DNA of 64,000 bases, taken from the NCBI GenBank assembly GCA_026134085.1, contig JAOQIN010000003.1, forward strand, positions 1 to 64,000, in the 5' to 3' direction. This stretch comes from Candidatus Methanoxibalbensis ujae (lineage in GTDB: Archaea > Halobacteriota > Syntropharchaeia > Alkanophagales > Methanospirareceae). The notes under the pieces are model-generated. The model did no database searches. It had not been told where the DNA came from and worked only from the letters and a program-made list of their open reading frames with translations. Positions 26,141 to 46,519 of the stretch are shown here, one piece after another; positions within the stretch are counted from its first letter, which is position 1, and every line of letters starts with the position of its first letter. Both the position numbers and the translations under genes were made by a program.

Positions 26141-26185
26141 TCGAAAGCACGAACCGCATACGCACCTGTTAGATGAAGTGCTGCC
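26141..26185. repeat. attC-like half site S4
   Basis: CCGCATACGCACCTGTT identical to S10; GTTAGATGAAGTGCTGC complementary to GCGGCATTTCATCT at 26816-26829. Confidence 0.7.
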
Positions 26186-26199
26186 ACTAATTAATATAT

Positions 26200-26796: not shown

Positions 26797-26859
26797 CTTG
26801 TGTAACCTCTCTTAAGCGGCATTTCATCTTTCTTAGCATAAAAAAGTTTAGTTATTTAA

Positions 26860-27300: not shown

Positions 27301-27710
27301 TGCTTTATCATTCCCTCTTTAAAAATGCGATTATGCTGTATTCATATTCTTCCTTGAGCAGAAGTAACTGCACTAAAACCAGCAATAAATTTATCAGAGA
27401 CCATCCAGACCACCAGAATGGAATCAGAATTAGATTGAAAGCGATACCCCCCGCCAAGCCAAATTTCACAAGTTTTGCTTTACTTAGAATGAGTATGCTT
27501 ATAGAGTATGCCTATAGAGTCTTTAAAAACTATAACTAAAGCGAGACACGCCGTCAAATACGGCATTATGATTGAGTTTCACAATGATTTGTAAAGAGCA
27601 ATGAGTGCGAATTTGGCAAATTCTTGATATACTTGGGGGTCAAATAGGGCAAGTTAATTACAGCACTATACATTGCTCCCACAAATGTTCTTGCAATCTC
27701 CGACAGCATT

Positions 27711-28807: not shown

Positions 28808-28899
28808 GGTTTATCTCCCCTCTCACTCTCATTATGAATATTCCATCCCAGATATTGCTTCAAATTCCAGATGTTAAATATGTGGGAATCCATAGTGCC

Positions 28900-29770: not shown

Positions 29771-29783
29771 TTCACCTATGCCA

Positions 29784-31252: not shown

Positions 31253-31302
31253 TTTTTACCTCCTTAAGTTATATCTCCCTCTATCTATATCTTTTCATTT
31301 CA

Positions 31303-31453
31303 GGCGTCCCGAAGCCGATTGCGTATAACGTTTTGCAGATAAAAGAAGTCCCGACTTGTCGGGATTTGGAGAAATCTTTGATTTCCCTTTTATCCGCTGT
31401 TATATGACCCGAGGGGCAAGGTTGCTTCGCAACCAAAGAGTGCAAAGCCCGCC
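31303..31453. repeat. attC-like site S5
   Basis: GTATAAC (31327) GTTTT GCAGATAAAAG-AAGTCCCGAC..GTCGGGATTTGG..CTTTTATCCGC T GTTATAT (31399), plus outer arm. Confidence 0.85.
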
Positions 31454-31461
31454 AAGATTCT

Positions 31462-32928
31462 TTACTCATATTTATCCCTCAATTTACTCTTACTCATTTG
31501 ATCAGGCTTTCTGAAGTTCGCAGTGTAATTCTTTTTCCTGCCGCAGCTCTCAATGAATTCAAAGCCCTGCTTTTCAGCCAACAAACGGACAACCGGCAAA
31601 GGTAAAAAGTCAGGGTCTCCCGGCTGTTCTGTGATGGATAATAAACCGGAGGGTTTTAAGACTCTGTATATAGCACCCAAACACCTTTCCTTATCTGAAA
31701 CTTCACCTAAAACTGCAACGAGAAAGACAACATCAAATTCATTCTCATCAAACGGAAGATCAACAGCATCTCCCTGAGTAAATCCAACATTATGCAGACC
31801 CGCCGACTGAATCTTACGACGTGCTTTTTCAAGCATCTCTTTTTGCAAGTCAAACAATTCCAGATGTCCCTGCGGTATGCGCCGTGCAACTTCAACACTG
31901 AAGTAGCCGGGACCAGGACCTATCTCAAGCACATTGAAATCCTCTTTGAGATGAAGCCTATCAGCCAGCTTCTGGGGAGAAAGAATAAGTCTCCGCAAAG
32001 GAAAATCCAACCAGAAGGATATTTGAGAGGGATAAGTCCCCTTGCCGAAAAAACGCCTTAGGATCCCCTTCTCCGCTGATCTCATTTGGCAGCCTCTTAT
32101 ACGGGTCAAAGTTTTCGGTCCAAAAATGAGCGTTATTACCACTGATAAAATAATAATCAAAATCAGACTGTATAGCCTGCCCTGCTCTGTCAATGGAATG
32201 AGATTTCCACTGAAATTGCACATGAAGTGAAAAAGTATAGCGGAGAGAGTGCTGCGGTTGGTGTTGTTGTAAATCCAGGTGAATAGAATTGAAAGAAAGA
32301 TTGGGCTGAAAATAAACGTCCAGAAATCCAATGTGCCAAATTTTAACACATCGTGCTGCCACTGTCCTTTCATGAAGAAAAGGGGAAGATGCCACAATGC
32401 CCATACCACGCCCAAGAGAAGGCTTGAGAAAAGGGCATTATACCTTGCCTGCAAGCCATCCAGAGCATAACCACGCCAGCCCAGCTCTTCTGGTAATGGT
32501 CCATAGAGCAGGATAAAAACGGCAAAAGGAAGAATTCTCCATGGTTCAAACAGCAGATTTCTGGCTGTTTCAAACTCAGGCCACGGTGAGCCTGCAAGAA
32601 CGCTTAACAGAAGGGCAAGAGTGTTCAGCACAGGAAATGTGAGCCAGATGACCAGATGCCATCTTTTACCAATCCGCCTGATGTCAAATACACGCTGCCA
32701 GTAATCTCTCCATTCTTCTTTATCGTGGGTGCGAGAGATTAAGATGATTTCCGCAATTGCAGGGCCGAACAACCCAAGGGCACCGAGAACTATTGCTGGG
32801 AATGTAAAGACATTCCAGCCCAGCAATATAACCCATATCCAGAAGAACCATGAAATGCCAAGGGCCAGAGTAAAAAACCGCCATGGATTTGCAGCTTTTG
32901 AGTTTTTTGTGCTCATTATTTTATCCAT
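31462..32928 (-). CDS. Fusion of a CPBP protease (N-terminal) and a class I SAM methyltransferase (C-terminal)
   Basis: PEELGWRGY, WALWHLP and ILFHFM, then MRSAEK..LEIGPGPGYFS. Confidence 0.8.
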   Translation of the reverse strand: MDKIMSTKNSKAANPWRFFTLALGISWFFWIWVILLGWNVFTFPAIVLGALGLFGPAIAEIILISRTHDKEEWRDYWQRVFDIRRIGKRWHLVIWLTFPVLNTLALLLSVLAGSPWPEFETARNLLFEPWRILPFAVFILLYGPLPEELGWRGYALDGLQARYNALFSSLLLGVVWALWHLPLFFMKGQWQHDVLKFGTLDFWTFIFSPIFLSILFTWIYNNTNRSTLSAILFHFMCNFSGNLIPLTEQGRLYSLILIIILSVVITLIFGPKTLTRIRGCQMRSAEKGILRRFFGKGTYPSQISFWLDFPLRRLILSPQKLADRLHLKEDFNVLEIGPGPGYFSVEVARRIPQGHLELFDLQKEMLEKARRKIQSAGLHNVGFTQGDAVDLPFDENEFDVVFLVAVLGEVSDKERCLGAIYRVLKPSGLLSITEQPGDPDFLPLPVVRLLAEKQGFEFIESCGRKKNYTANFRKPDQMSKSKLRDKYE

Positions 32929-32953
32929 GCTTTTTACTCCTCTCCTGTTGATC

Positions 32954-33643
32954 TCATAAACTATACCTTAAAACGATTGTAACAAAAATCAAAACAGGGG
33001 ACGAAGTTGCTGGAATTCCACGGTACCACGGTTTGTTCTTAAAAGATAGCATACCAATAATGTTCGGAATCTGCCCAACAATGATAGCACTGATAGCCAT
33101 CCAAATAGCATGTATTCCCCAAATTTTTAGAGTAGCCCCCACAATAAGGGCAAAAACAAACATATCTCCAATGCCAGTTATTTGATATAATCCTGAGAAA
33201 CCTGGAATGGGCATGCAAATCGATAGCCTTTTTGCAATTGTTTTATTCTCAATTAGTTTTCGGTTAGGAGTCCCCTTCCCAAACCGTGTAAAACTGATGA
33301 AATCTATTATAGCGATGGGTATCAGAAAACTTATTAACTTCTCCTGGCTTGAAAGCCAATAAGCAGCCAATATTCCTAATAAAATTCCACCAAGCATATA
33401 TGATACATTGTGTAGATATAAAACATTATCTCGAAAAGGTTGCCGCCATGTCCAAATGGCCAAGACTATCACTATTGCGAGAGCAATTATAATTGATAGG
33501 ATAGATAAATGCGAAATCAAAAATGCAAGCAGGATGTTGGTTAAGCTCAACATGATTATATAAAAAATTATCCGGAAATAAGCAAATTTATTTCTATTTT
33601 TCTCTTTTGTAGTGAGATTTTTATTCTTCATTTTCTTCACCAT
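32954..33643 (-). CDS. Membrane protein resembling GxGD aspartyl intramembrane proteases (presenilin/SPP-like)
   Basis: Transmembrane Asp (IIDFISF), GIGD, C-terminal IPA. Confidence 0.6.
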   Translation of the reverse strand: MVKKMKNKNLTTKEKNRNKFAYFRIIFYIIMLSLTNILLAFLISHLSILSIIIALAIVIVLAIWTWRQPFRDNVLYLHNVSYMLGGILLGILAAYWLSSQEKLISFLIPIAIIDFISFTRFGKGTPNRKLIENKTIAKRLSICMPIPGFSGLYQITGIGDMFVFALIVGATLKIWGIHAIWMAISAIIVGQIPNIIGMLSFKNKPWYRGIPATSSPVLIFVTIVLRYSL

Positions 33644-33684
33644 TTGTTAATTTCATGATGTTATATATTTTTTCTGTTTAAAAA

Positions 33685-33826
33685 TGGGGTTCGGAATTTA
33701 ATATAACAATTTGCAGGTATGCGAAGTGCCGCAGGCATTTGAGTGGGCAAAGCGAACCCGCCTGTTATACGATCCGAACGAAGTGAGGACGAGGAGCGAA
33801 GCGACGAAGCGTTCCGCCCAAAGCTC
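33685..33826. repeat. attC-like site S6
   Basis: ATATAAC (33705), GAAGTGCCGCAGGCATTTG, CCTGTTATACGA (33764), arm with CGAAG hairpins ending CCGCCC. Confidence 0.85.
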
Positions 33827-33842
33827 CATGAAATCTTATGTT

Positions 33843-34625
33843 CTACCATATTAAAATCTCCCCATATGTTATTTTTGTCCCCTTTTCAGCAGTTTTTGTT
33901 TTTTTAAGTATTATTTTGCGTATATGTCTTAAATATTCTTCTCTGAATATCACAAATCCATTATCAAATTTAATGAAATTTTTATTGAACACATCTAACG
34001 CATTTTTGCATTTTACCTTGGTAGTTTCTCTTACGCGAGGATTCAAAATTTTACTTTTTAATTCATTTACATCAATAACTAGGTATGGAACTTCCACAAC
34101 AATATCGGCATGAGTTTGTTGCCTTTTCGTAAATCTACGATTCGAGGCTTCTCGCCTATAAGACACTTTTTTAACCTGAATAGCGATTTTTATTTTGTTT
34201 AATTCCACAATCGCGTCTATTCCCATCATGTCCAATTCTGCGGACGAGATTAATTTTTCTTTAAAAAGAGCATTCCATAGGTATTGAAAATGAAACTGGG
34301 TAAGAATTGACATCCATATACGATACAACCTTGCTTTAAATCCCTCTTCAACAAATTGCAAAGAGCATCCATAAAAATACTTTTTTATAAAGTCATAGAT
34401 ATAAGGGTTGAGTTTTTCTCTCCAATAGATCTTAAAAATTTCATCATAATCCTTAAAATCAGTAGAATCCCAATAATATTTATAGTATATTTCAAGAGGT
34501 AACAATTCTCGTGGCAAATCCCGCTCAACAGTTTTTATTTGTCTCAGATGTGCATATTTTTGTACCTCTATGTTTTTGAGAAAATCTACGAGTTTCTTTA
34601 AGTCTACTTTCCAGTTTCTTACCAT
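33843..34625 (-). CDS. TaqI-family type II restriction endonuclease
   Basis: IKTVERDLPREL, KYFYGCS, ARLYR, TQFHF, GIDA..IQVKK; colinear with TaqI as I recall it. Confidence 0.88.
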   Translation of the reverse strand: MVRNWKVDLKKLVDFLKNIEVQKYAHLRQIKTVERDLPRELLPLEIYYKYYWDSTDFKDYDEIFKIYWREKLNPYIYDFIKKYFYGCSLQFVEEGFKARLYRIWMSILTQFHFQYLWNALFKEKLISSAELDMMGIDAIVELNKIKIAIQVKKVSYRREASNRRFTKRQQTHADIVVEVPYLVIDVNELKSKILNPRVRETTKVKCKNALDVFNKNFIKFDNGFVIFREEYLRHIRKIILKKTKTAEKGTKITYGEILIW

Positions 34626-35977
34626 AATAACACCTCTTTTAATTTTTTAAGTTCTTTTTTTGCAGGCAAAGGAAGCAATTTTAATTGTGTTATATTGAAA
34701 TGATAAGTTATATCCCTAAACACATCCTTTACATATTTTTTTATTATTTTTGAATTCAAAAATTCAACTACTTCTTCATCAGTGAGATCAAATTGCATAT
34801 TTGTCAAAGTATGCTTTCTCAATAAATGATAAACATCACCCATCCACGGATACGCCCTGTAATCATATGCAGCACCTACTTGTCCATCTCCCCTGAAACC
34901 CAAGCCAACGACTATGTGCGGTTTGTCAAAAAACTTTCTTAACTTTGTTTTTTTATTTCTATCTATCCAATATCCAGTCACAGCTTTATAAATCACTTCA
35001 CCTATTTTCAAGTTCCTCCCATTGAGAACTGGAAGTAAGTTGTCCTTATTTATTTCCTTTGCCCTGATGATCTCTGAATTATGTTTTATCTCCGGTGTTC
35101 TTGGCGATATCTTTATTGTGTATATATCGCCAACTCTATAACTGCAAATTTCATCAACCTTCCTGCTAAATTCTGTGGAGAATGACACAACTTCTCCTTT
35201 CCAACTGTCATTTCTTGTAATCAGTTTTGGGCTGCCATTGTTATAATCAAACAACCTCAGCTTACCCCTTTCTGATCTTGTTTTTACAAATTTTAAAACG
35301 ACAGTAGTCACGTCTGCCTCTGGTTTAAAAACCTCACCACCCATATATACAAGTTCAATTTCACCTCTTGAAGCGAGAAAACTACGAAGTTTTTTGAACT
35401 CATCGAGAATCATGAATGTTGCAGGAACAATAAATATAAGTTGGCCATTTTCTTTTAATAATTTTACAGACTTTTCTATGAATGCTCCATAGACATTGTA
35501 TTTTCCATACCAGGTTTCATATATTTCTTTATATTTTCTTTTTGTCTCATTATCTACACGAATGGTATAATGCTCTGATAAGCTTGGAATACCATAGGGT
35601 GGATTTCCTATGATTATGTCAAATTTTTCGTCTGTCTCCCATAGTAAATAATCACTGTGAATGATTTTTATATCCTGTGCGAGGTTGCTCTCATTTATAT
35701 AATCAATCACCTCTTTATTAATTTCTACACCTATTTTTGGGGAGGAATTTTCAAAAATATGCCTCTTAATTCTTTTGATCCCAGACAAAAACTGACAGAT
35801 TCCGCATGCTGGTTCAAGGATCTTAGCAGTTTGAGGCAACTCATTTTCATTTATTAGATTTACCATAAAATCAACTATCCACTGAGGCGTGAAAAAAATA
35901 CCCCAATCTCTCTTTATATGTTTGATTTTGTTGTTTACTACATTTGCATGAGCCTCAACCTTTGTACTATCCATCAT
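34619..35977 (-). CDS. M.TaqI-like N6-adenine DNA methyltransferase
   Basis: FFTP, LEPACG, GNPPYG, GKYNVYGAF, VPATF, GRNLK and RAYPW motifs. Confidence 0.92.
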   Translation of the reverse strand: MMDSTKVEAHANVVNNKIKHIKRDWGIFFTPQWIVDFMVNLINENELPQTAKILEPACGICQFLSGIKRIKRHIFENSSPKIGVEINKEVIDYINESNLAQDIKIIHSDYLLWETDEKFDIIIGNPPYGIPSLSEHYTIRVDNETKRKYKEIYETWYGKYNVYGAFIEKSVKLLKENGQLIFIVPATFMILDEFKKLRSFLASRGEIELVYMGGEVFKPEADVTTVVLKFVKTRSERGKLRLFDYNNGSPKLITRNDSWKGEVVSFSTEFSRKVDEICSYRVGDIYTIKISPRTPEIKHNSEIIRAKEINKDNLLPVLNGRNLKIGEVIYKAVTGYWIDRNKKTKLRKFFDKPHIVVGLGFRGDGQVGAAYDYRAYPWMGDVYHLLRKHTLTNMQFDLTDEEVVEFLNSKIIKKYVKDVFRDITYHFNITQLKLLPLPAKKELKKLKEVLLW

Positions 35978-36027
35978 GATCTTCCTTTATGTAGTATGCT
36001 TTTAAAATACTTTTAAATTTTTTATCA

Positions 36028-36145
36028 GAGTTTCAGGGCGAAATGTCATATAACCCCGCATATACAACGTTGCGACGAAGTGTGAAGGCAAGGAGTAGCC
36101 TTGGCGTCTGTGCTGTGCCATCTGATGTGCTGTGCCGTTCTCTGT
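36028..36145. repeat. attC-like site S7 (GTT decayed to GCC)
   Basis: GGGCGAAATGTCATATAAC (36052); body nearly identical to S14. Confidence 0.7.
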
Positions 36146-36409
36146 CATAGCTGAGCAAAAACTCGAGCGAGAAAAACCGCCCCTATCTCTGCTGATTGAT
36201 TGTCATGCAGTTGCTCCACTCGCTCGCTGAAATAAAATATTGAAATAAAATAGCTAACATAGCAGTCGCAACAGGAAATGTGAGACACCACAATGCGAGA
36301 GATACCATCGTAGCTGCCATTATTCCCAATCCACCTGAGATAACACCTGCAATACCTGCCGCAACATTTATAAATAAAAAGTCGTTGTAACTGGAAAAGG
36401 TGATGGAAA

Positions 36410-36784
36410 GTGAAGAAAAGGGATCTATATTTGGTGGTATTTGTCTGTAGTCTTGCATCTAACCTACTCGTTCAGCTCACTCCCTCAGTAAACTGGCCCC
36501 CAATTTTTTATGTATTCATCATAACACTTTTCACAACACTCCTCTCCCTTTATCTGCTCATTCTCAATGGCATATTCATGAAACTCTCCAAAGCCGGACT
36601 GTTCCTTTTTCTTCTGATATTCCCCCTCATAATGTTCTTTACGTTTTGGTTCGGTCTGTGGGGTTATTGTGATTTGCTGAATCTGAGCAAAACAGGTGAT
36701 TGCGTACTTGTAGCTCTGATAGTCCTTCCTGTCACAATTGCTGTCGCTGTGGTTGGTCCGATCCTTACGATTTTAAGGAAGTAA
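36410..36784 (+). CDS. Small multi-pass membrane protein, opposite orientation to the array
   Basis: 124-aa ORF with about four hydrophobic segments. Confidence 0.5.
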   Translation: MKKRDLYLVVFVCSLASNLLVQLTPSVNWPPIFYVFIITLFTTLLSLYLLILNGIFMKLSKAGLFLFLLIFPLIMFFTFWFGLWGYCDLLNLSKTGDCVLVALIVLPVTIAVAVVGPILTILRK

Positions 36785-36886
36785 TGAGATGCTAAGAGCA
36801 TGATATTTTCGCCCATAAATTAAGAGGTATTTTGTAATTTTTTCTGTTGGCCTCTCAGATAAGAAATCTGATATCATAAATAACCC

Positions 36887-37612
36887 CTATGTATATCTAC
36901 TTGTTTCATTTGTTACCTCATCCATTTTATCCAGATCATTCTGTTGAAATTGTTTCATAAACTGTTCCATCGGGAAGGGCTTTCCATGCCCCGGAGTTTT
37001 TATTCTCAACTTTTTCAGTTTCTTGACACTTTCATTTGCTACTGTTAAGTCGTCCATAATAGAGCTGAGAACTGGTTTGTCTTTATTTTCAAGCAGATCT
37101 CCGCAAAAAAGATCGCCATCTGCTGTCAGTATTCCTATTGAACCTTTTGAGTTCCCGGGAATATGAAGAACTTTTGCATTGAATCCGTATTCAGTGAGAT
37201 CATATCCCTCATCAATACATAAATCCGGTTTGAATCGCTCCTTTTTGCCAAATCTGAACAGGATGCGAGCCATCATTCCAAGGAGAACATTGCCTTTTCT
37301 CCTGTTCCAGAACATGTCTCCACGTTCGCTCATTCCCGAATCACCATGATGCATCGCTATCCCTGCACCGAACTTTTCACGGAGATGAGCTGCATTGCCT
37401 GTGTGGTCAAAATCTCCATGGGTTAAAACGATAAGTTTGAGATTGCCGGGTTTACACCCCGCTTTTTCAAGTTCTTTTTCAAGTTCGGCGCGCTTATTTG
37501 AACATGCTGTGTCGATCAGGATATAGCCGGTGTCGGTTTCTATGAGGTAGCAATTTACGGTACCTAACTTATAAGGCAGTGGTAAAGTAATGGTCTTGAG
37601 CTTTGTAGACAT
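36887..37612 (-). CDS. MBL-fold metallo-hydrolase (possibly degenerate)
   Basis: THGDFDHTG, PGNS (His replaced by Asn), GD and PGHG motifs. Confidence 0.82.
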   Translation of the reverse strand: MSTKLKTITLPLPYKLGTVNCYLIETDTGYILIDTACSNKRAELEKELEKAGCKPGNLKLIVLTHGDFDHTGNAAHLREKFGAGIAMHHGDSGMSERGDMFWNRRKGNVLLGMMARILFRFGKKERFKPDLCIDEGYDLTEYGFNAKVLHIPGNSKGSIGILTADGDLFCGDLLENKDKPVLSSIMDDLTVANESVKKLKKLRIKTPGHGKPFPMEQFMKQFQQNDLDKMDEVTNETSRYT

Positions 37613-37651
37613 TTTATCCTTCCTCCTTTTCTTGCCGACAGGGCGCTATCT

Positions 37652-38032
37652 TCACTCCAGCTCGTGTCCCCTTTCGACTCGGGACTCTGCGAAGCTGCAG
37701 AGTCGTCTATCGCACGGCTCGTAAGAAGCTGGACACAGCAAGGACACAGTCCAGCCCACGATTCCTCCAAATGCCAGTAGGCGTATCAGAGCTGGATAGG
37801 AGGATTCCCAGATCCACAGCCCCACCATGCCGGGGAGAAACAACACCCAGACGATTATCTGTGCGATCAAAGGCAAGCCTCGCATCCAGTTCCAGACCAA
37901 GTCCAGCCACTCCAAGTTCATGACCAGTGCGACAATGAACCCGCCCCACCACATCGCGAAAATCACGACGGCGTAGGTGCTGAGTACTCGTGTAACAACA
38001 TCGCTCCAGAACGATGGATCCTTCATAATCAC
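37652..38032 (-). CDS. Hypothetical membrane protein
   Basis: Trp-rich hydrophobic ORF directly after site S8. Confidence 0.6.
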   Translation of the reverse strand: MIMKDPSFWSDVVTRVLSTYAVVIFAMWWGGFIVALVMNLEWLDLVWNWMRGLPLIAQIIVWVLFLPGMVGLWIWESSYPALIRLLAFGGIVGWTVSLLCPASYEPCDRRLCSFAESRVERGHELE

Positions 38033-38067
38033 TCATCCCTTCTTCATGGCTATGCCTCTTTATATGC

Positions 38068-38160
38068 TTTCGCTTAACGTTTCGCGGATAAAAGACGAAG
38101 GCTTGGAAATCTTTGATTTCACTTTTATCCGCTGTTGGGCGTCCCAATGGGCAAAATTTT
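38068..38160. repeat. attC-like site S8
   Basis: GCTTAAC (38076) GTTTC GCGGATAAAAG...CTTTTATCCGC T GTTGGGC (38134). Confidence 0.85.
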
Positions 38161-38411
38161 TCTAAAAAGAAGTTTTGAGTTTTCGAGAGCTCGGTTTTAT
38201 TCTGCTTATGGCTTTATTATCAAACTACATGGAGTATCTGAGCTATAAGCTTGGCGTTACTTTCTACGATGTTGTCAATCTTTGCTCCGTTGAGATAGTA
38301 CAAGCATTTGCTTACGTGATCACGTGGTCAGTTTCAATGATTAAAATCCCGAAAAGATTAGATCAGTCTGAGTTTGAGTGGGTGCTGTGTGATATTGTAT
38401 TGGATATTGTG

Positions 38412-39104
38412 TTAGATGTCTTGGAGGGGTCGAATGGTTGTACCGGTTCCGCCTCCTGGGTCTAGGTCGAGGATGATAAGGAGTCCCCTATACCCCTCTT
38501 TCTTCACGACTATTTCGTAGACTTCTCCAAGCTTAAACATGTGACTTAATTCTCCATTGCTATCGGTGTAACCTACGAATGTGCCGTTTATGTAGACTTC
38601 AGCTTTCTCGACGGGACGTCCATTGGAGGTAATGCGCATAACTTTGAACTGCTTATCATCGTACAACCTTTCAAGCTTCATGCTAAAAGACAGATATCCT
38701 TTAAGTCTTACGTTGACGAACGTTGCTTGGGGGAAGAAACCTTCCTTTTCGGCGTAAATTTTGTACCATCCTTCCTCCTCGAAAACATGGGTGATTTCTC
38801 CGCTTGAGTTCGTCTCGCCTATGTACATTCCCTTCGTCGATAAGTTGTGGTCCTTCGCGACGTAAACCTTGGCTCCCTTGACGGGGTTGCCTCTGAAATC
38901 TCTGACAATTATCTTGACTCTCTCGCCGATTGTTGGGTTCTCGGGTATGAGGTCTATCTTCAGCTTGTTAGCTTCTGGCTTCTCTGGCTGCTTTGTCTCC
39001 ATTACTTCAACTTCAATAATTTTCATGTTTAACGCTAAAGTGCTAACTATCAGCATGACTATAGCTACGGCTGTAGCTAGGAAGATGGCTCCCCTTCTAT
39101 GCAT
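38412..39104 (-). CDS. Secreted protein with two carboxypeptidase-regulatory/PEGA-like beta domains
   Basis: Signal peptide; repeated G.PV..A.VY..G.T...GE...Y.I...KEG. Confidence 0.65.
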   Translation of the reverse strand: MHRRGAIFLATAVAIVMLIVSTLALNMKIIEVEVMETKQPEKPEANKLKIDLIPENPTIGERVKIIVRDFRGNPVKGAKVYVAKDHNLSTKGMYIGETNSSGEITHVFEEEGWYKIYAEKEGFFPQATFVNVRLKGYLSFSMKLERLYDDKQFKVMRITSNGRPVEKAEVYINGTFVGYTDSNGELSHMFKLGEVYEIVVKKEGYRGLLIILDLDPGGGTGTTIRPLQDI

Positions 39105-39156
39105 CTGTATCCTTCGATAAATTTAATGTGTTCACGTATTTAAATATTTCATTCTT

Positions 39157-39786
39157 TCATTCTCGCAATATCTTCTGATCAGGCAGTCTTCGCATTTGGG
39201 ATTCCGCGACCTGCAAATTCGCCTTCCAAATTCTATCAGTATTGGGTTTTCGTTCTTTGTTTTGGTGGTATCTCAGATTCGAGTTTCGCTCTCAAACTCT
39301 CATAATTGTCTCTTTCACCGGCTATTCCCAATCTTTTCATTATTCTGAAAATGTGAACATCAATGGGTAGTACCTGTTCTCCCTTAATCGCCATTAAAAA
39401 GACATCTGCGGTTTTCGGGCCAATTCCCTTTATTGAGGTCAGTTTTTTCTTTACCTCGTCATAAGGAAGTTTCAATATTTTTATCTTTCCATCGTATTTT
39501 TCAACTAAATCTTCGGCGATATTTTTGATTCTTCTGGCTCTGATCCTATATAAACCCGCCGGTTTAATAACTTTCTCAATCTCTCTCATTTGCCTTTGCC
39601 ACATCTTCAATGCCATTAAACCTCTCACTAAATCTTTCAGTGGCAGTTCTCACATTTTTCCAATACATTCGCTGGGAAAGGATTATACTAACCAATGTTT
39701 CGAACGGAGTATATCTTTCCCACCACTCGTTGATTTTGTATTTCTTAGGATCTCCTCTATCTTTTGAAGTTTTGTTCCCATACTCA
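39157..39786 (-). pseudogene. nth: Endonuclease III (Nth) family, frameshifted
   Basis: PFETLVSIILSQ, then GIGPKTA and PIDVH, then GRRICRSRNPKCEDC, spread over broken frames. Confidence 0.8.
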
Positions 39787-40291
39787 TCACTTGGCAGCAC
39801 TCGCCTTACAGATGTATCTCATCTTACATCGTGCGCATCCCTTTTTTCTTCCGAACTGATTTAGCACCATTATCGCCAGGAAGCCAGTTAGACTTATTCC
39901 ACCAGATACTGAAAATTCCCCGTGCAGAAACATCGCAACGGGAATGGCGATGATTGGAATAATTGTCAATAGACCTCAGGTTAAACAAGCCGGTTTCACT
40001 CCCACATCATAATTACCGGATTTCTGAATAAACACGAACTCGATTTACCCCAGCCGGTGCCGCACAACTTGCCGTAGTAATAGCAATGCGTGCAAAGATG
40101 TTCCCTTAATGAATCCGAGCATTAAAAAAGCAAATAACATATAAATGAACGGACAATCCCTCAAGTTTCAATGCAGACATACTGTGAGCTGCGAATCCAA
40201 ACCAGAGCAATAGCAAAACATTTGTTAAAACCGCCGTTGCCTTTAATTCTCCAATCCATTTTCGTATAGTTTTTGTTTTTCCATATTTCAC
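39787..40291 (-). pseudogene. Cys-rich membrane protein remnant
   Basis: CTHCYYYGKLCGTGWG and CARCKMRYIC in different frames. Confidence 0.5.
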
Positions 40292-41217
40292 ACTTTCTTT
40301 CTATTTTCCACATTATAAGCACATATTAAATAATAAATTACCCATCCCCTGAACTCGCCCCACCTTTCCGTAAATTTTCTAACGGTATCTCCTGATTGAA
40401 GTTTTCCGTCAAAGTAGAAGTGTGAAACTGCTTTTCTGGCTCCGAGGTCATCGGGAACGCAGAGATCCATTCTTCCTAATGTCGTTATCAGTATTAACTC
40501 GGCAGTCCACCTTCCGATTCCCTTAAATTTCATCAACTCTTCAATTGCTCCCTCATTACCCAATCTTTTAATTTTCTCCAAATCGTATCCATCGGCAACT
40601 TTCAGTGCGAGTTCTTTGATGTATCTGGCTTTCTGACGGGATAACTTACACTTCCTCAATTCGTTCTCATCGGCATTTGCCAACACTTGAGGTGAAGGAA
40701 AATCGTAATATGGTTCGCCATCGATTTCTATTTTCTCTCCGAATCTTTTGACCAATTCCCCAGTCATGACATAGGCAACCCGTAAAGAAATCTGCTGCTG
40801 GATTATCACTCTGATCGCTCCCTCAAATATACTCGCCCCGATTCCCGGCGGTCTCAGACCGTAAAGTTCTTTCTTTATCTTACGAAGTATCTCATCTTGT
40901 TCCATAAAATCATACAATGCTCTGAGGTCATCTCTCAATCTAAAAATGTCCGCGATTTTATCCGACAGATATCTCTTCTCTTTCGTATTGAGTTTGGAAA
41001 ATGCGTTAACCCTCAACTTTGGCTTTTCCACAGTGCCAACAGAAGTAACCTCCATTGGAACTAATCTATCTCCAATTTTAAAACTCCGTCTCCAAATGCC
41101 ATCTTTATAAATTTCTGGCTGTGGCTCTTTCGATGAAGAATAAAATTTCCACTGCAGATCAAAATCATAGGGCGGAGTTGGTAGGAGTTCGAATGAAGTT
41201 TTATCCATGATAATCAC
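40288..41217 (-). CDS. alkA: DNA-3-methyladenine glycosylase II (AlkA family)
   Basis: IIQQQIS, FPSPQ, KGIGRWTAE and DDLG (HhH-GPD) motifs. Confidence 0.9.
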   Translation of the reverse strand: MIIMDKTSFELLPTPPYDFDLQWKFYSSSKEPQPEIYKDGIWRRSFKIGDRLVPMEVTSVGTVEKPKLRVNAFSKLNTKEKRYLSDKIADIFRLRDDLRALYDFMEQDEILRKIKKELYGLRPPGIGASIFEGAIRVIIQQQISLRVAYVMTGELVKRFGEKIEIDGEPYYDFPSPQVLANADENELRKCKLSRQKARYIKELALKVADGYDLEKIKRLGNEGAIEELMKFKGIGRWTAELILITTLGRMDLCVPDDLGARKAVSHFYFDGKLQSGDTVRKFTERWGEFRGWVIYYLICAYNVENRKKV

Positions 41218-41287
41218 TTAAATTCAATTTATTTAATAATTTTTTCACACGTCGTGTCAAATCAAGATTTGAAAATAGCGAACCCTC

Positions 41288-41426
41288 GAAATTTCGCCTA
41301 ACGTTTTGCGGACATACGAAGTTCTGCTTTGCGAAATTTGGGCGTAGCCGAAGGCGAAGCCACATATCCGCCTGTTGTCCGAGTGCGTTAGCGCCGAAGC
41401 GAAGCGGAGAGTTCACGGAGCCCCGC
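41288..41426. repeat. attC-like site S9
   Basis: GCCTAAC (41300), GAAGTT..AAATTTGG, CCTGTTGTCCGA (41374), arm GAGTTCACGGAGCCCCGC. Confidence 0.88.
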
Positions 41427-41433
41427 CGAGAAA

Positions 41434-41823
41434 TTAAACTTGCTTTTCTCTTATTATCAAAAAAACTATTGAAAGTATTAACCCTGTTGTATAAAGAGGA
41501 GAAATTGTAAAGTAAAATGGAAAGAATAGGTTAGGTATTACAGAAATGGTTGTGACTAAAACTTCGGTGAAATTGTAACCAAAATATAAAACTGATGAAT
41601 ATTCTCCCAAATTTTTCTTCTTCAGTAAGGTATAAGCGATTACTACTCCAACAAGACCATTCGCTAATAAACATATTGAAGTGTTTATGCCACCTAATTT
41701 AATGCCAAAGAAATGGGTTTCTGGAGTTATAAATGAAGTAAAAACTAAACCGAAGAAATTTAGTCCAAGAAGAAATATGAGTATGTACCTCACAATATTG
41801 GCTAAATTTATGTTTTTCATCAT
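41434..41823 (-). CDS. Hypothetical membrane protein (single-gene cassette)
   Basis: 129-aa hydrophobic ORF filling the space between S9 and S10. Confidence 0.7.
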   Translation of the reverse strand: MMKNINLANIVRYILIFLLGLNFFGLVFTSFITPETHFFGIKLGGINTSICLLANGLVGVVIAYTLLKKKNLGEYSSVLYFGYNFTEVLVTTISVIPNLFFPFYFTISPLYTTGLILSIVFLIIREKQV

Positions 41824-41866
41824 AGTTTATATTAAATACTAAATTATTTTAAAAACTTCTTCCTAA

Positions 41867-42027
41867 GCGGGGCGGAGTGAATTTCGGACAACGTCTGGGG
41901 CGTATGCGGAGTTGCGGAGCGAAGCGACGCAATTTGGGTGTAGCGACCATAAGGGGGCAAAACCGCATACGCACCTGTTGTCCGAGTGCGAAAGCACCGA
42001 GCAATCCGAAGGCGAGAGTCCCGCCGC
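41867..42027. repeat. attC-like site S10
   Basis: TCGGACAAC (41890), GCGTATGCG..CGCATACGC stem, CTGTTGTCCGA (41977), plus outer arm. Confidence 0.88.
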
Positions 42028-42429
42028 TCATATTTTTTCTTCCTCCATCCATATTTTAAGATAGCTTTTTAACGTTTGAACGAAATTTTTGGCAGTTTCT
42101 AACATATCTCTTGCCTCTCCTTCAGTGACGATAAAACCTATGCCGTAATCCCCTATCAATCTTTTATCATAGGCATCGTTAAGCGTTTTCCTCAAACCTC
42201 TATCAAAAATTCCTGTTTTTATAAAGTGTTCTCCAAATAAACTTATCCAAATAAACCTATCACTCCTTTATGAGAAGAAGCACTCAAGTTCTTGGTAAGA
42301 AGTGCCGCTTCTGCCATGAAAAACATCGCATAATAGTTGAAACACAGGAATCGTAATCTCCAATATTAAGGGTTTGTTCTGCTGTTTTTAGAAATTTCCT
42401 TTTTCTATGAAATCCTTTATCTCCTTCAT
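42028..42429 (-). pseudogene. HEPN-domain toxin remnant
   Basis: YYAMF..AEAAL..SSHKGVI and AYDKRLIGDY in broken frames. Confidence 0.75.
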
Positions 42430-42746
42430 ATCCTTATCCCCTCTTTCCTCACATTTATTACAAATGGATAATTATAGTTTTCAAAGAAGGTCTTAGGAAG
42501 AGCAATAACCGAAACAAGTTCTCCCTTCTCAAGTAATATGTCAAACAGAAGGTCACTCAAACTTCTCCTCACCTCAAAGGGATCAATTGAATCATCAATG
42601 AGCACAAGTAAATCTATGTCTGAATCTTTTGTCGCTTCGCCTCTCGCATGAGAACCATAAAGAATAATCTTTTTAATCTTATCTCTATATCTTTCTATCA
42701 GATGACATTTCACTTGATTTACCAGTTGAGTTATTCTCTTATCCAT
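42426..42746 (-). CDS. Minimal nucleotidyltransferase (MNT) antitoxin
   Basis: LYGSHARG..SDIDLL; EGIRI C-terminus. Confidence 0.88.
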   Translation of the reverse strand: MDKRITQLVNQVKCHLIERYRDKIKKIILYGSHARGEATKDSDIDLLVLIDDSIDPFEVRRSLSDLLFDILLEKGELVSVIALPKTFFENYNYPFVINVRKEGIRI

Positions 42747-42763
42747 TTTTTCACCACTTTAAA

Positions 42764-42900
42764 CGGGGTTCGGGATTTCGGACAACGTTCTGGTATGTGA
42801 AGTTTTGCCTTGCGAAATTTGCACGAGCGTTAGCGAGCCACCTCCTGTTAGCAGACTTGAAGGGCAAGGTGCGAAGCATTGCAGAGTGACAAAGCCCGCC
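42764..42900. repeat. attC-like site S11
   Basis: TCGGACAAC (42784), GAAGTTTTGC..GCGAAATTTG, CCTGTTAGCAG (42847), arm TGCGAAGCA..GAGTG..CCCGCC. Confidence 0.82.
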
Positions 42901-42923
42901 ACACATCCAGACAATCACTGAGT

Positions 42924-43388
42924 TTATTTTCTAATGGTCATTTTGCATCCTTTGTCTGTAAATTCCGCCGTCAAATTCACTCCTAAATTCTCGGCAACGG
43001 GCTTGAAGTAACCATTTATGCACCCACCACAATGTTGCTCCTTCGTTATCGGAGCTCCTTTCTCTGCAAATTCCAGGGCTACCTTTAGATTGTTGCATTC
43101 CTTAATCTCCAAAGTAACACTTCCATCCTCATTTGGCACAACATCCACATCGCTACCAAAGACATTTTTGCATGTTATCGCCTGGGTCATCGCAAAACCC
43201 ATAGGGTCATCTTTTCCCATCGCTTTAAATTGTTCAGCAGATTGCTTTGCCACTCGTTGATTGTATTCTTCCAATCCCTGCGGCCCCAGTTTCTCCATGA
43301 TGAAGCCAATTGCTCCATACATCTGCTCCACCCACATTTGGGTGAACATCTTTTGTCTTTCTTTTTCCGGCAAAGTCGGTATTTCCAT
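42924..43388 (-). CDS. Hypothetical protein with conserved Cys (V4R/ATC-hydrolase-like ligand-binding fold); the upstream extension in the ORF track is probably spurious
   Basis: RBS-like GGGGT before MEIPTL; EC..HC..C..GC pattern. Confidence 0.55.
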   Translation of the reverse strand: MEIPTLPEKERQKMFTQMWVEQMYGAIGFIMEKLGPQGLEEYNQRVAKQSAEQFKAMGKDDPMGFAMTQAITCKNVFGSDVDVVPNEDGSVTLEIKECNNLKVALEFAEKGAPITKEQHCGGCINGYFKPVAENLGVNLTAEFTDKGCKMTIRK

Positions 43389-43874
43389 CTCTTTTACCCC
43401 CTGTTTGAATGTTGTTTTATGATTGCATATAAACTTACTCCTTCTCAAGGCGGGCCTGGGCATTTCACTGGGGATATGTGAAGTTTCCCGTAGGCAAATC
43501 TGGATGAACTTTTCACCGCGCCATCTCCCAGCATGAAACATAAATTTACCGAAGGCTGATATACCTCCACCAAAAGAGTTTGTTCCGGCATAGAGCTCCA
43601 TCATAACGGTATAGTGAAAGATAACCAGGGGTGAATGATCGCACTCTGTAGTGTCCCACCATGAGACCCAGCACAAATGGATTGTAAAGTGAGGTCTCAG
43701 TCGAATACCATAAGCGAGGGCAGCTCCTTCATAATGCCTTCTGGCAGGAAAAAAAGCCGAAAGCGTGGGCAAGAGCTGGGAATGTAAAGAAAAACATGAA
43801 AGCATACCCTGTTCTTACCCAAAGACTTTCGTGGCCTGAGTCTTTTATGCTTCATTTTTCAGTGCCCCCTACTA

Positions 43875-44013
43875 TCGGCTGTTTCATCTAACATATCGCA
43901 AATATGCGAAGTTTGGCGTAAGCCAAATTTGGCAATCTTTGATTGCGAAACCACATATTTGCTGTTATGTCCCCCGATAGGGTAAATTGCGAAGCAATTT
44001 GAGTTCCGCCGCC
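43875..44013. repeat. attC-like site S12
   Basis: ATCTAAC (43890) ATATC GCAAATATG..CATATTTGC T GTTATGTC (43964), arm AATTGCGAAGCAATT-GAGTTCCGCCGCC. Confidence 0.88.
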
Positions 44014-44021
44014 GAGCATTA

Positions 44022-44698
44022 TTATAATTCTACTGTGGCAATTATTGGTAAATGATCGGACAGTCTTGGCTTTTGATTAAAATTTCGTTCTCATCACCAA
44101 CCTTGATTTCCTCAACTTTGACATCTTTCGGGATAAAAAGATAATCCAATTGATATGGTTTCTTGTTCGCAGGAGAAATAAAAGTAAAAGCTTTTGGGAT
44201 GAATTTAAGAGAGATTATAACCTATTTGATAGTTCTTTTTTCTGCTAGTATTCCCCAATCTTTATATTTACATCGAAACTTTTCATCCATATTGAAATCT
44301 CCGCCAATAATGATCGTTTGCACTCTATTCATTATTCCGAATATAGCTTAACATACTAAAAACTTGGAGAACTCATTTTCATCAAGTCCAATATAATTGT
44401 AAACATAAATACTATTCTTTTCTCAGCTAATTCCATTTTGGCAGAAACATAAAAATCTACAAGCACATCAATTTCTGAATTATTGGAAATTATGTTTTCT
44501 TCTTTTACCTGCATTATATCCAGATTTTTCTTAATCAATACAGCATTCATTTCACCACGGATAATATGGTATTTTTTCTTATCGCATAAGCATATAAACT
44601 AAATAATCCCACCTCAAAATCTAGTTTATTAAAATAGTAAAATTTTTTCTTGTATATGCAGCTCTGTTTATGTTCCATGTAACGATTTTCAGCTTCAT
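44022..44698 (-). pseudogene. Endonuclease/exonuclease/phosphatase (EEP) family remnant
   Basis: MKLKIVTWNI, IIGGDFN, YQLDYLF and SDHLP in shifted frames. Confidence 0.8.
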
Positions 44699-44721
44699 TT
44701 TCAATCCCCCTCTATTTGTGA

Positions 44722-44835
44722 GGCGGCGGAATTAGACATAACGTCCCCGGTGTATCTGAGTATCTGAAGTCCGCCGAAGGTGGATTTGGGCAGGTGCTGT
44801 AAGGCACGAAGCCAGATACGCTCTGTTAGCGGAAC
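44722..44835. repeat. attC-like site S13
   Basis: GGCGGCGGAATTAGACATAAC (44740), GAAGTCCGCCGAAGGTGGATTTGG, CTGTTAGCG (44825). Confidence 0.85.
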
Positions 44836-44843
44836 TTTTATTT

Positions 44844-45455
44844 TTAAATAAATAAAAAAAGAGTCATTATATTAGCCGACGAGTGTGTTATCCAGCTCGG
44901 AATGATACTGCCATTTCCCACCTTTTCATTTATGTATCCCATTAAATAGCCAATTGTCCCTGTAAGCAATACTATCGCTGTTATTCCAACAATATTTCTA
45001 ATTATCTCCCAGAATAAAACCCCATGCATTAAGCCAAATAATATACTTTGTAAAAGATTTCCATAATTAAATCCCAATAAATTGATGAACCTTTTTCCAA
45101 GAAAACCCCTGAACAAAATTTCTTCCGACATTGCTGTTGCCACCATTGATTTGATTAAAACAATCAGTATCGCATCCACACAAAATCCCATTTGTTTTAC
45201 AGCTCCACCGACTAAACCTTCAGCCCTAAGAGAATCAAGTAATCCAAGTTTCCAATACACCAGCCAAGAACCACCAAAATACAACAGTGCTACAACTATT
45301 GAGATCGGAATAGATTTTCTCTCAGGTTTAATTAGTCCAATATACCTCAAAAAGCCAGTTATCTTCTTATTTTTCACTAGATAAAAAATCAAAGGTATTG
45401 CTGAAAAAATCGCAACTTGGATTAAAGCCGAAATTAAAGTTATTAAAACAATCAT
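44844..45455 (-). CDS. CPBP family intramembrane metalloprotease
   Basis: SEEILFRG, FGLMH and WITHSSAN motifs. Confidence 0.88.
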   Translation of the reverse strand: MIVLITLISALIQVAIFSAIPLIFYLVKNKKITGFLRYIGLIKPERKSIPISIVVALLYFGGSWLVYWKLGLLDSLRAEGLVGGAVKQMGFCVDAILIVLIKSMVATAMSEEILFRGFLGKRFINLLGFNYGNLLQSILFGLMHGVLFWEIIRNIVGITAIVLLTGTIGYLMGYINEKVGNGSIIPSWITHSSANIMTLFLFI

Positions 45456-45504
45456 TTTTATTACCTCCTTTATTACCTCCTTATTTTATATTTACAATCC
45501 GAGG

Positions 45505-45600
45505 ATGTCTCCAGCATATACGACGTTGCGACGAAGTGTCCTGAAGGGCAAGGCGTAGCCGTGGCGTATATGCTGTGTTATCTGATGTGCCGTTCTCTGT
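45505..45600. repeat. attC-like site S14 (AAC lost)
   Basis: AGCATATACG..CGTATATGCT stem, GTTATCTG at 45577; paralogous to S7. Confidence 0.7.
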
Positions 45601-45628
45601 GTCGCCAAAAACCGAATCGTAAACCTCA

Positions 45629-46414
45629 TCAAGATATACCTCCAATCCGATTTGCTTTTTTGGAGATGACTCGCCCTGCTCGCTTAAAGAACACGCTCAA
45701 CAATGCTCCTGAAACGATCAGCGCAATCCAATCGATCACGATGACAGCAACCTCATATCTGTATTCGAGGTCGCTTCCGTAGAGCAGAGCGAGGACGATG
45801 AGCGATCCGACTGCCAGGACAGAACTTGCGCCGAATACAAGCCGTATTATCCACTCAAGCCTCTCACGCCGGCCGAACGCGAGAGCGACAAACAGGAAGG
45901 ACACGCCCATCATCAGGTGGCCGACTTCCTCCAGTGCAATAAAAACCCCGTGCGGATTGTATTGCGAGAGGAGCGAGAGCCCCTCAACCTCGCCCTTCAG
46001 GAGACTGGGCTGCATAACCGCAAGTTGAATGAAGTAGTTTGTGGCGAGCACAGCCGCAGAGATCACGGCAAAGGACAATGCGACTTGGCTGAATACCCGC
46101 CTGTCGGCAGAGGCAGAGGCGTAGTGGTGGATGCAAACAACGAGCACAACAAATAGCAGTGACATCAGGAATGCTGGATACATCCAGAGGTAGTCATTTG
46201 GAACGAATACGGCGGCATCGGTATAGGGATATGTAATACACGAATCCAACATACAGAACGGCCCGGACCGTGGAGGGGCGGTTGTGACGGCGATAACCAG
46301 AGCCACCGCTGCAGCTACTGCTGTTGAGATTGAGGTCCAGAATCCAAGCACACTCTGTCTGGCGGAGTTTGTAGTTTCGGCATCAGTAACCTGATTTGAT
46401 CTTAATTGAGACAT
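45629..46414 (-). CDS. Multi-pass membrane protein of unknown function
   Basis: 261-aa hydrophobic ORF with GGAGG RBS; higher GC than its neighbours. Confidence 0.75.
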   Translation of the reverse strand: MSQLRSNQVTDAETTNSARQSVLGFWTSISTAVAAAVALVIAVTTAPPRSGPFCMLDSCITYPYTDAAVFVPNDYLWMYPAFLMSLLFVVLVVCIHHYASASADRRVFSQVALSFAVISAAVLATNYFIQLAVMQPSLLKGEVEGLSLLSQYNPHGVFIALEEVGHLMMGVSFLFVALAFGRRERLEWIIRLVFGASSVLAVGSLIVLALLYGSDLEYRYEVAVIVIDWIALIVSGALLSVFFKRAGRVISKKANRIGGIS

Positions 46415-46519
46415 TTAATTTTCCTCCTTCGCTGGCTCCACATTCGCTTTGACGTTCGCTTTGTTTGCTCACGGATCTTATTTCTTTTTCGTTTCTACTT
46501 ATCATTTTTGTCTTTCTCG

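What the first reader, a model, noticed from the sequence alone, without database searches (positions are those of the whole stretch)
41374..44742. The two ends of each cassette pair with each other, not with the neighbour: footprint of circular intermediates
Seen in the sequence: the GTT side left of a gene is complementary to the AAC side right of the same gene, while the two halves of one site often mismatch. GTTGTCCGA (41374) pairs with TCGGACAAC (41884-41892), although the AAC half of S9 is CGCCTAAC. GTTATGTC..GAGTTCCGCCGCC (43964-44013) pairs with GGCGGCGGAATTAGACATAAC (44722-44742). GTTGTCCGA..GAGTCCCG (41977) pairs with CGGGATTTCGGACAAC (42771-42786). GTTATACGA..CGTTCCGCCC (33764) pairs with GGGCGAAATGTCATATAAC (36036-36054). 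GTTAGATGAAGTGCTGC (26168) pairs with GCGGCATTTCATCT (26816). GTTAGGTG..AGTCG..GGAGG (23723) pairs with CCTCC..CGATTACACC (24372). GTTGGGCG..AAATTT (38134) pairs with AAATTTCGCCTAAC (41289). Inference: units excise and insert by crossover at the G/TT of the minus-strand GTT, each carrying its own matched ends.
Basis: partly seen in the sequence, partly recalled or inferred. Interest (0 to 1): 0.9.

Follow-up and report, generated by a model that had tools for sequence, protein, structure and literature searches.

The report
Archaeal gene cassettes with matched ends
The matched ends are real and mark integron-type mobile gene cassettes in the chromosome of a methane-metabolising archaeon: the rule itself is textbook integron biology, but here the pairing runs well beyond the usual seven bases and relatives pair such arrays with a simpler recombinase.

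Summary
Observation confirmed. All 7 quoted end pairs sit at the stated coordinates. Cognate ends pair better than permuted ones: 8 curated window units, 13 of 40320 permutations reach the cognate duplex energy. For 15 auto-called units on other contigs of the same genome, 0 of 100000 do.

The region is part of a roughly 23-kb integrase-less array of attC-like sites (about 23.7-46.4 kb). It is one of many such clusters, 51 sites on 20 contigs.

Matched ends are the known signature of integron cassettes, because the crossover inside one core splits each site (PMC2674596).

What goes beyond the textbook:
- Pairing extends past the 7-base core into 20-25-base outer arms.
- The unpaired bases lie on the opposite arm from canonical attC.
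- Relatives place such arrays downstream of a recombinase that lacks the IntI-specific insertion.

Circles themselves were not observed.

This scan had already reported the same thing on other pieces of this genome (e1-5002344, e1-1065047).

The parts
23723..46430 (-). Whole cassette array (cluster of attC-like sites, no integrase). It lies between the RNase P Rpr2 gene (23023-23412) and housekeeping genes right of about 46.4 kb. Nearly all cassette genes are on the minus strand.
   Evidence: Site census. Pfam scan of 60 ORFs: 0 of 60 hit Phage_integrase.
41279..41427 (+). Junction J9. AAC-side arm 41279-41302 (AAC at 41300-41302), central hairpin module 41303-41373, GTT-side arm 41374-41427.
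41302..41891 (-). Cassette U10, bounded at the plus-strand AA|C. It holds its own site (41302-41427) and a 129-aa gene with no Pfam family (41434-41823). End GTTGTCCGA (41374) pairs with TCGGACAAC (41884-41892).
   Evidence: cognate duplex -20.9 kcal/mol, rank 1 in row and column
41869..42025 (+). Junction J10. AAC-side arm 41869-41892, central module 41893-41976, GTT-side arm 41977-42025.
41892..42785 (-). Cassette U11. It carries a nucleotidyltransferase (MNT-type, 42426-42746) and a HEPN-like partner that is split over three frames (42028-42433).
   Evidence: arms (-11.5, rank 2)
42765..42900 (+). Junction J11. AAC-side arm 42765-42786, central module 42787-42846, GTT-side arm 42847-42900. 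The first ~14 bases of that arm differ from the copy in relative G005.
42786..43891 (-). Composite unit. Cassette U12a has its gene at 42924-43389, read from the sequence; the 293-aa ORF 42924-43805 runs through a dead junction. The degenerate junction is at 43449-43518 and lacks 9 bases across the AAC core. A second body lies at 43519-43891.
   Evidence: an X3 contig supplies the missing bases between 31328 and 43470
43868..44013 (+). Junction J12. AAC-side arm 43868-43892, central module 43893-43963, GTT-side arm 43964-44013.
43892..44741 (-). Cassette U13. The gene is broken into four minus-strand frame pieces (44042-44711). Its ends pair over the core plus an outer GGCGGCGGAA/TTCCGCCGCC stem.
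   Evidence: -20.7, rank 1; circular form -43.9 against in-array -28.3 kcal/mol
44722..44831 (+). Junction J13. AAC-side arm 44722-44742, central module 44743-44824, GTT core 44825-44831. No hairpin arm follows.
45507..45600 (+). Variant site (second subfamily, also at 36055-36145). Its AAC core reads GAT in the window. In G005 and in X2/X3 contigs it directly follows the cassette of 42862-43469.

Best explanation
The region is a run of integron-type gene cassettes in an archaeal chromosome. The genome encodes McrA; earlier scan notes call it ANME-1, which I did not check.

Anatomy. Each junction has three parts on the plus strand:
- an AAC-side arm of about 24 bases;
- a central imperfect hairpin of 53-120 bases, bounded by RYYYAAC-like and GTTRRRY-like cores;
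- usually a GTT-side arm of about 50 bases, which holds a small side hairpin.

Shown. The arm to the left of a gene pairs with the arm to the right of the same gene, and not with its partner in the same junction.

Inferred. Each unit was once a circle in which the two arms and the central hairpin formed one long folded site. A tyrosine recombinase cut it next to one core. On the balance of evidence this was at the plus-strand AA|C, which is the G|TT of the gene-sense minus strand. The cut left about 24 bases of the site at the cassette's front and the rest behind the gene.

The array in this genome looks largely immobilised. About half of the window's junction cores are damaged. The only recombinase copy found in the assembly is a frameshifted stump on another contig.
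For: - Cognate ends beat permuted pairings: 60 of 40320; 13 of 40320; 0 of 100000 for 15 units on other contigs; 0 of 100000. The two halves of one junction do no better than random.
- Pairing goes beyond the 7-base core (positions 8-16, 44 of 100000; arms without cores, 0 of 100000).
- The site family has the core layout of attC (consensus from PMC3053210).
- The site family is found in 23 of 24 same-family genomes searched.
- The same cassettes occur in other contexts, with breaks at site borders: G005, G011 and contigs of X2 and X3.
- Polarity, platform evidence. At 10 (plus 1 partial) of 16 informative places in relatives, a recombinase gene is followed by 2-3 dif-like palindromes. GTT plus the reverse complement of an AAC-side arm comes next, and then a co-oriented gene. 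Site orientation is antiparallel to the recombinase in G029, in G026:C10 and on own contig C7.
- Polarity, indel evidence. The indel 43469 to 45507 leaves behind the site that belongs to the right-hand neighbour. A crossover at the plus-strand AA|C predicts this.
- Known rule: a cassette runs from the first T of one R' core to the G of the next, and its own attC is the circular form (PMC2674596).
Against: - No circular junction was observed. The four runs laid were assembled contigs only.
- No intact recombinase was found in this genome, which is 89% complete.
- Three of the 8 curated window units show no cognate preference.
- The cassette of 42862-43469 has different central modules on both sides in the window and in G005. 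Its homology starts about 14 bases inside the GTT-side arm, at neither core.
- Similarity of central modules correlates equally weakly with the AAC-side arm and the GTT-side arm (0.073 against 0.075). So linkage to one neighbour is not shown statistically.
- In 22 of 25 classifiable sites (of 36 examined) the spacer is 3-4 bases longer on the AAC side of the plus strand. By the rule for canonical attC (PMC5027507) that would make the plus strand the top strand, which is the opposite polarity.
- The left end of the window's array (23723) has a GTT-side arm with no central module beside it.
- Contigs from metagenomes can be chimeric at repeats.
Confidence: 0.85

Rival explanations
1. Same cassette system, but the crossover is at the plus-strand G|TT next to the GTT-side arm. 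The plus strand is then the conventional top strand and the genes lie antisense to the array.
For: - The spacer asymmetry matches the canonical top strand in 22 of 25 classifiable sites (rule).
- The left array end has a GTT arm without a central module, and the right-hand site J13 has a central module without a hairpin arm.
- For the MNT/HEPN cassette, the copy on own contig C1 shares the right-hand central module more than the left-hand one.
Against: - In relatives the palindrome region behind the recombinase abuts the AAC-side arm, with no central module between them.
- The indel 43469 to 45507 keeps the variant site of the right neighbour.
- The variant site at 45507 stays with its right-hand sequence in the window and in G005 while the left neighbour differs.
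- The central module left of the CAAX-protease cassette is conserved with that cassette in G011:C31.
Confidence: 0.12
2. Both cores are exchange points, or homologous recombination between conserved modules is frequent. Gene bodies and central hairpin modules then shuffle independently.
For: - Central modules are not linked more to one arm than to the other.
- The cassette of 42862-43469 has different central modules on both sides in the window and in G005.
- A chimeric-looking central module occurs in G011:C31.
- Small deletions hit both the AAC and the GTT cores.
Against: - The two inner stems of a central module pair with each other within a junction.
- Three comparisons keep the central module with the right-hand body.
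- The power of the test is low.
- Assembly chimeras could mimic mosaics.
Confidence: 0.1
3. The inverted ends are terminal inverted repeats of transposon-like units, or they act at RNA level through pairing of the two ends of a transcript. In either case they are not a split recombination site.
For: Each gene is flanked by an inverted repeat. The GTT-side arm lies just after the stop codon on the gene's strand.
Against: - No transposase lies in the units.
- The units sit head to tail, separated by a conserved hairpin module.
- A-T-rich, TATA-like stretches lie between the AAC-side arm and the start codon, so that arm should not be in the cassette's own transcript. This is read from the sequence and is an inference.
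- The recombinase-palindrome-cassette platform occurs in relatives.
Confidence: 0.03

Closest known systems
Bacterial integron gene cassettes and attC sites (mobile class 1 integrons; sedentary chromosomal integrons)
   Same: - Head-to-tail units, each with one imperfect-palindrome site bounded by RYYYAAC-like and GTTRRRY-like cores.
- The crossover inside one core means a cassette's first bases complement the far core of its own site. The site that belongs to a cassette is the one in its circular form (PMC2674596; PMC3053210).
- Toxin-antitoxin, restriction-modification and unknown genes as cargo.
   Different: - Complementarity continues for about 20-25 bases outside the cores and includes a side hairpin.
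- There is a 3-4-base excess of unpaired bases on the gene-distal arm, instead of extrahelical bases on the gene-proximal arm.
- Each cassette seems to carry its own promoter-like A-T-rich stretch (read from sequence).
- The recombinase of relatives lacks the IntI insertion and is co-oriented with the cassettes.
Archaeal integrons and CALINs (Ghaly et al. 2022, PMC9668308; sections 5, 9, 10 and passages read)
   Same: - Arrays of attC sites in archaeal chromosomes, mostly without an integrase.
- Many sites per genome; sites are more alike within a genome.
- attI lies immediately downstream of intI.
   Different: - Their six IntIs carry the IntI-specific additional domain. The recombinase next to this site family does not.
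- Their main text names neither ANME nor Halobacteriota. I did not read their supplementary tables, which may list this lineage.
- In the parts I read I saw no mention of long cognate outer arms.
Archaeal XerA/dif chromosome-resolution system
   Same: - The recombinase of relatives passes NCBIfam NF040815 (XerA_Arch; 253 bits, cut-off 220).
- It aligns in one stretch with solved XerA structures (4a8e, 5hxy).
- Its downstream region holds dif-like palindromes.
   Different: - It is patchy and multi-copy with many broken copies: 21 of 41 genomes have a match, up to 3 per genome, several with stops inside.
- It has an N-terminal extension of about 70 residues.
- It is always followed by variable cassette starts.
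- Its best solved match is the Vibrio integron integrase 2a3v.

Membership tests
Integron cassette array / CALIN | At least two attC sites less than 4 kb apart, separating short ORFs in one orientation (criterion as given in PMC9668308) | tested here: met
   12 nhmmer hits of the site family in the window contig; genes nearly all on the minus strand.
attC site | Imperfect palindrome of 57-141 bp between an RYYYAAC inverse core and a GTTRRRY core (PMC3053210) | tested here: met
   Central modules are 53-120 bases plus cores. 42 of 51 sites have a called AAC arm and 42 of 51 a called GTT arm; several cores are damaged.
attC site | Extrahelical bases on the R''/L'' (gene-proximal) arm and an unpaired central spacer of 5-6 bases on each arm (PMC5027507) | tested here: not met
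   in 22 of 25 classifiable sites (of 36) the spacer is 3-4 bases longer on the plus-strand AAC arm. That is the gene-distal arm if the genes' strand is the top strand. folds show a one-sided bulge, not a symmetric spacer.
attC site | Detection by the IntegronFinder attC covariance model | not testable with these tools
   Rfam holds no attC model; the scan of the window found only 3 tRNAs.
Integron gene cassette | The cassette's first bases (after G|TT) complement the inverse core of its own attC, because the site is split by the crossover (PMC2674596) | tested here: met
Integron (complete) | IntI with the IntI-specific additional domain near patch III | tested here: not met
   - Own genome: the best TIGR02249 match scores 33 bits against a cut-off of 265. 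Only a frameshifted stump exists.
- Relatives: the recombinase scores 226-243 bits on TIGR02249, below 265, in two stretches that skip about profile positions 179-233.
- Against 2a3v, 27 residues stand where IntI has 69.
Integron (complete) | attI beside the integrase gene, ending in a GTT core at the first cassette | tested here: met
   Relatives only: 10 (plus 1 partial) of 16 informative places. The own genome holds a decayed version on contig C7.
Integron (complete) | Recombinase-dependent excision as circles and insertion at attI | not testable with these tools
   Only contigs could be laid. They show cassette indels at site borders but cannot show circles.

The most novel reading that the evidence does not exclude
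These archaeal arrays without an integrase are not orphans. They belong to a second kind of integron, run by a XerA/IntI-like recombinase that lacks the IntI insertion and sits upstream of a dif-like attI.

Its cassette sites differ from attC in two ways:
- The unpaired bases are on the mirrored arm.
- The crossover splits a long outer stem, so only the excised circle rebuilds the full hairpin. The model gains about 4 kcal/mol more than shuffled or in-array arms. This could bias the system towards capture of circles and keep arrayed cassettes quiet.
Probability: 0.4. Interest if true: 0.75.

Novelty: new variant of a known kind. Interest (0 to 1): 0.45.

Why it matters
- The matched ends give a sequence-only way to mark cassette borders and to tell intact cassettes from decayed ones in archaeal arrays.
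- The long cognate arms, the mirrored unpaired bases and the insertion-less recombinase of relatives suggest a possible reason why most archaeal arrays are scored as lacking an integrase. The standard detector asks for the IntI-specific domain.
- If the recombinase link holds, gene-cassette capture in archaea, including methane-cycling lineages, runs on a simpler enzyme than thought.
- The role of the IntI insertion and of extrahelical bases in strand choice then becomes directly testable by comparison.

Tried and rejected
- Chance was rejected by exact and sampled permutations.
- Duplication of whole junctions was rejected. The two halves of one junction pair no better than random.
- I tried to decide which neighbour owns the central module by correlating module similarity with arm similarity. 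It was uninformative (0.073 against 0.075).
- A first automatic caller of the AAC and GTT positions misplaced several and crashed. It was replaced. The remaining doubtful cores were dropped: C12_25790 on both sides, and the AAC arms of C23_24338, C26_10939, C59_4580 and C12_28751.
- The hard constraints did not force the core pairing. Its summary line on spacer sizes is not used; one search replaces it.
- I looked for an integrase inside the window. None of 60 ORFs hit Phage_integrase.
- Read mapping for circular junctions was not possible. All runs offered were kept as contigs, so absence of circles is not evidence. Parts of the stretch without contig cover in some runs are not interpreted.
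- Literature searches for 'integron' with 'ANME-1' (7 papers, none on this by listing), for attC with XerA (1 review by listing) and for 'integron-like' archaeal tyrosine recombinase cassettes (2 listed) found no description of this variant.
- Smyshlyaev et al. (PMC8138268, passages) note only that the insertion is not fully conserved in their integron-like subgroup.
Full report
**What is there.** The window is archaeal chromosome. The flanks encode tRNA-splicing endonuclease, type II dehydroquinate synthase, diphthamide synthase, NiFe hydrogenase with its maturation genes, RNase P subunit Rpr2, SRP54 and the RFC large subunit. The genome also encodes McrA above the curated cut-off. Earlier notes of this scan call it ANME-1, which I did not check.

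A repeated junction element separates small genes between about 23.7 and 46.4 kb. Nearly all of these genes lie on the minus strand. They include HepT/MNT pairs, a TaqI-type restriction-modification pair, methyltransferases, CAAX-type proteases, an MBL-fold protein, AlkA-like glycosylases and many unknowns. None of the 60 ORFs scanned is a tyrosine recombinase. Rfam finds only three tRNAs.

**Anatomy of a junction.** Alignment of ten window junctions and of 51 sites found genome-wide with a profile of them shows three modules on the plus strand:
- An AAC-side arm of about 24 bases. It holds a G/C-rich block, then A/T, then 5-9 variable bases ending in AAC.
- A central imperfect hairpin of 53-120 bases with a conserved GAAGT and an AAATTTGG-like centre.
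- A GTT-side arm. It starts with GTT plus variable bases, often has an internal small hairpin built on GCGAAGC-like loops, and ends in a GAGTYCCGCC-like block.

The cores fit the RYYYAAC and GTTRRRY consensus given for attC in PMC3053210.

**The observation.** Some have one or two mismatches.

*Curated window units.* I used eight units with intact cores and left five damaged ones out.
- Cognate ends match at 5.25 of the 9 positions beside the core. Non-cognate pairs match at 3.68. The two halves of one junction match at 3.78.
- 60 of 40320 permutations reach the observed sum.
- DNA duplex energies give 13 of 40320.
- Three of the eight units show no cognate preference. One of them hides a dead junction at 43449-43518.

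*Replication on other contigs.* I called units automatically from the nhmmer sites on all contigs and kept mis-called units in the count.
- 15 units on other contigs: -154.1 kcal/mol against -91.5 +/- 10.3, with 0 of 100000 permutations reaching it.
- All 23 units: 0 of 100000.

*Extent of the pairing.*
- The four variable core positions carry signal (4 of 100000).
- So do positions 8-16 (44 of 100000).
- So do the arms with the cores removed (0 of 100000).

The mean gain is -7.1 kcal/mol for cognate arms, -2.95 for shuffled arms and -3.5 for junctions as they stand in the array. For the cassette 43892-44741 the circular form folds to -43.9 kcal/mol and the arrayed junction to -28.3.

**What it is.** This is the known signature of integron gene cassettes. 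A cassette runs from the first T of one R' core to the G of the next, so the attC that belongs to a cassette is the one seen in its circular form (PMC2674596, passages). Integrons and integrase-less attC clusters in Archaea were described by Ghaly et al. 2022 (PMC9668308; sections 5, 9, 10 and passages read).

This genome has 51 sites on 20 contigs. It has no integron integrase above threshold. It has one frameshifted C-terminal stump of a tyrosine recombinase on contig C7. That stump is followed by degenerate palindromes and a short cassette array.

**Mobility as units.** The site family is found in 23 of 24 same-family genomes searched, and in further families of the class.
- Relative G005 carries the cassette of window 42862-43469 at about 89-95% identity, with intact matched ends. 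There it directly abuts the variant site that lies at 45507 in the window, followed by the same right-hand genes.
- Contigs of two other metagenome runs (X2, X3) show the same joint, 43469 to 45507 with TAAC between.
- An X3 contig shows that the window's junction at 43469/43470 lacks nine bases across the AAC core.
- The CAAX-protease cassette (44847-45467) recurs at 93% in G011:C3 and, truncated, at the end of an array in G011:C31. The two ends seen in those two copies are complementary over about 20 bases.

**Which core is cut.** In relatives a recombinase gene is co-oriented with the cassette genes. It is followed by two or three dif-like palindromes, then by GTT plus the reverse complement of an AAC-side arm, and then by a gene.
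- This holds at 10 (plus 1 partial) of 16 informative places.
- Four more distant recombinases and one fragment lack it.
- Three further places are cut by contig ends.

Sites are antiparallel to the recombinase in G029, in G026:C10 and on own contig C7.

Further points for this polarity:
- The 43469-45507 indel fits it, because the site that stays behind is the right neighbour's.
- Three comparisons keep a central module with its right-hand body.

Points against it:
- The cassette of 42862-43469 has different central modules on both sides in the window and in G005.
- Similarity of central modules is no more tied to one arm than to the other.
- The left end of the array lacks a central module.
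- In 22 of 25 classifiable sites (of 36) the spacer is 3-4 bases longer on the plus-strand AAC side. By the rule of PMC5027507 that marks a canonical top strand.

I read the last point as a real structural difference from canonical attC rather than as a reversal of polarity. I give the minus-strand G|TT crossover about 0.7.

**The recombinase of relatives.**
- It passes the NCBIfam XerA_Arch model, whose product name reads 'site-specific tyrosine recombinase/integron integrase' (253 bits, cut-off 220).
- It stays under the integron-integrase cut-off (226-243 against 265) and matches in two stretches.
- Its best solved relative is the Vibrio integron integrase 2a3v, also in two stretches. There 27 residues stand where IntI has 69.
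- Two solved XerA structures align in one stretch at nearly the same score.
- It is patchy and multi-copy, and many copies are broken.

So the defining IntI insertion was tested and is not met. The link between this enzyme and the cassettes rests on adjacency only.

**Standing in this scan and in print.** Earlier notes of this scan reported the same reading on other pieces of this genome (e1-5002344, long cognate stems; e1-1065047, array beside a short Xer-like recombinase). They reported Xer-type integron-like arrays in many other genomes as well. I reached the points above from my own calls. Three literature searches found no description of this variant. I did not read the supplementary tables of Ghaly et al.

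**Verdict.** The principle is already known. The long outer arms, the mirrored unpaired bases and the insertion-less recombinase of relatives make this a new variant of a known kind.

Noticed in passing
window 24385-24392; 43466-43473; 45500-45510; own contigs C8, C12, C37, C51 (sites listed): Several junctions have small deletions or changes exactly at a core. TAAC is missing at 24388/24389. Nine bases (TAAC plus GTTCC) are missing at 43469/43470. AAC reads GAT at 45504-45506. GTT or GTTA is missing at sites on C8, C12_25790, C37 and C51. These could be scars of failed recombination or plain decay after loss of the recombinase.
   Followed up: partly
own genome contig C7:15600-17100 (L001): Dead platform: a frameshifted C-terminal stump of the array-type recombinase, degenerate dif-like palindromes, then a methyltransferase cassette and two attC-like sites.
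   Followed up: partly
L018 (G011:C3) 790-930; L038 (G029:C2) 4385-4480; other loci: A conserved region lies behind the recombinase gene in relatives. It has two or three imperfect palindromes of the TATATACG...CGTATATA kind, spaced by a CCAAAATGG-like block and ending just before the GTT of the first cassette. I take it as a putative attI with dif-like binding sites.
   Followed up: partly
window 25171-25300 and own contig C81:2144-2355: A longer variant of the site with a central module of about 118 bases. The window copy has no GTT core at its right end.
   Followed up: no
window 42028-42433 and 44042-44711: Two cassette genes are broken into several reading frames: a HEPN-like partner of the MNT gene, and a gene with a GDFN-type motif. 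This fits an array that is decaying.
   Followed up: no
window 23430-23570: Two short tandem repeats (about 16-base and 13-base units, three copies each) lie between the Rpr2 gene and the left end of the array.
   Followed up: no
window 13506-13591 and 53919-54008: tRNA matches of 86 and 90 bases against a 71-position model could be intron-bearing tRNA genes, but long-variable-arm tRNAs (Ser, Leu) are of similar length. A tRNA-splicing endonuclease gene lies in the same window at 8987-10210.
   Followed up: no
window 33843-35977: A complete TaqI-type restriction endonuclease and methylase pair forms one cassette of the array.
   Followed up: no
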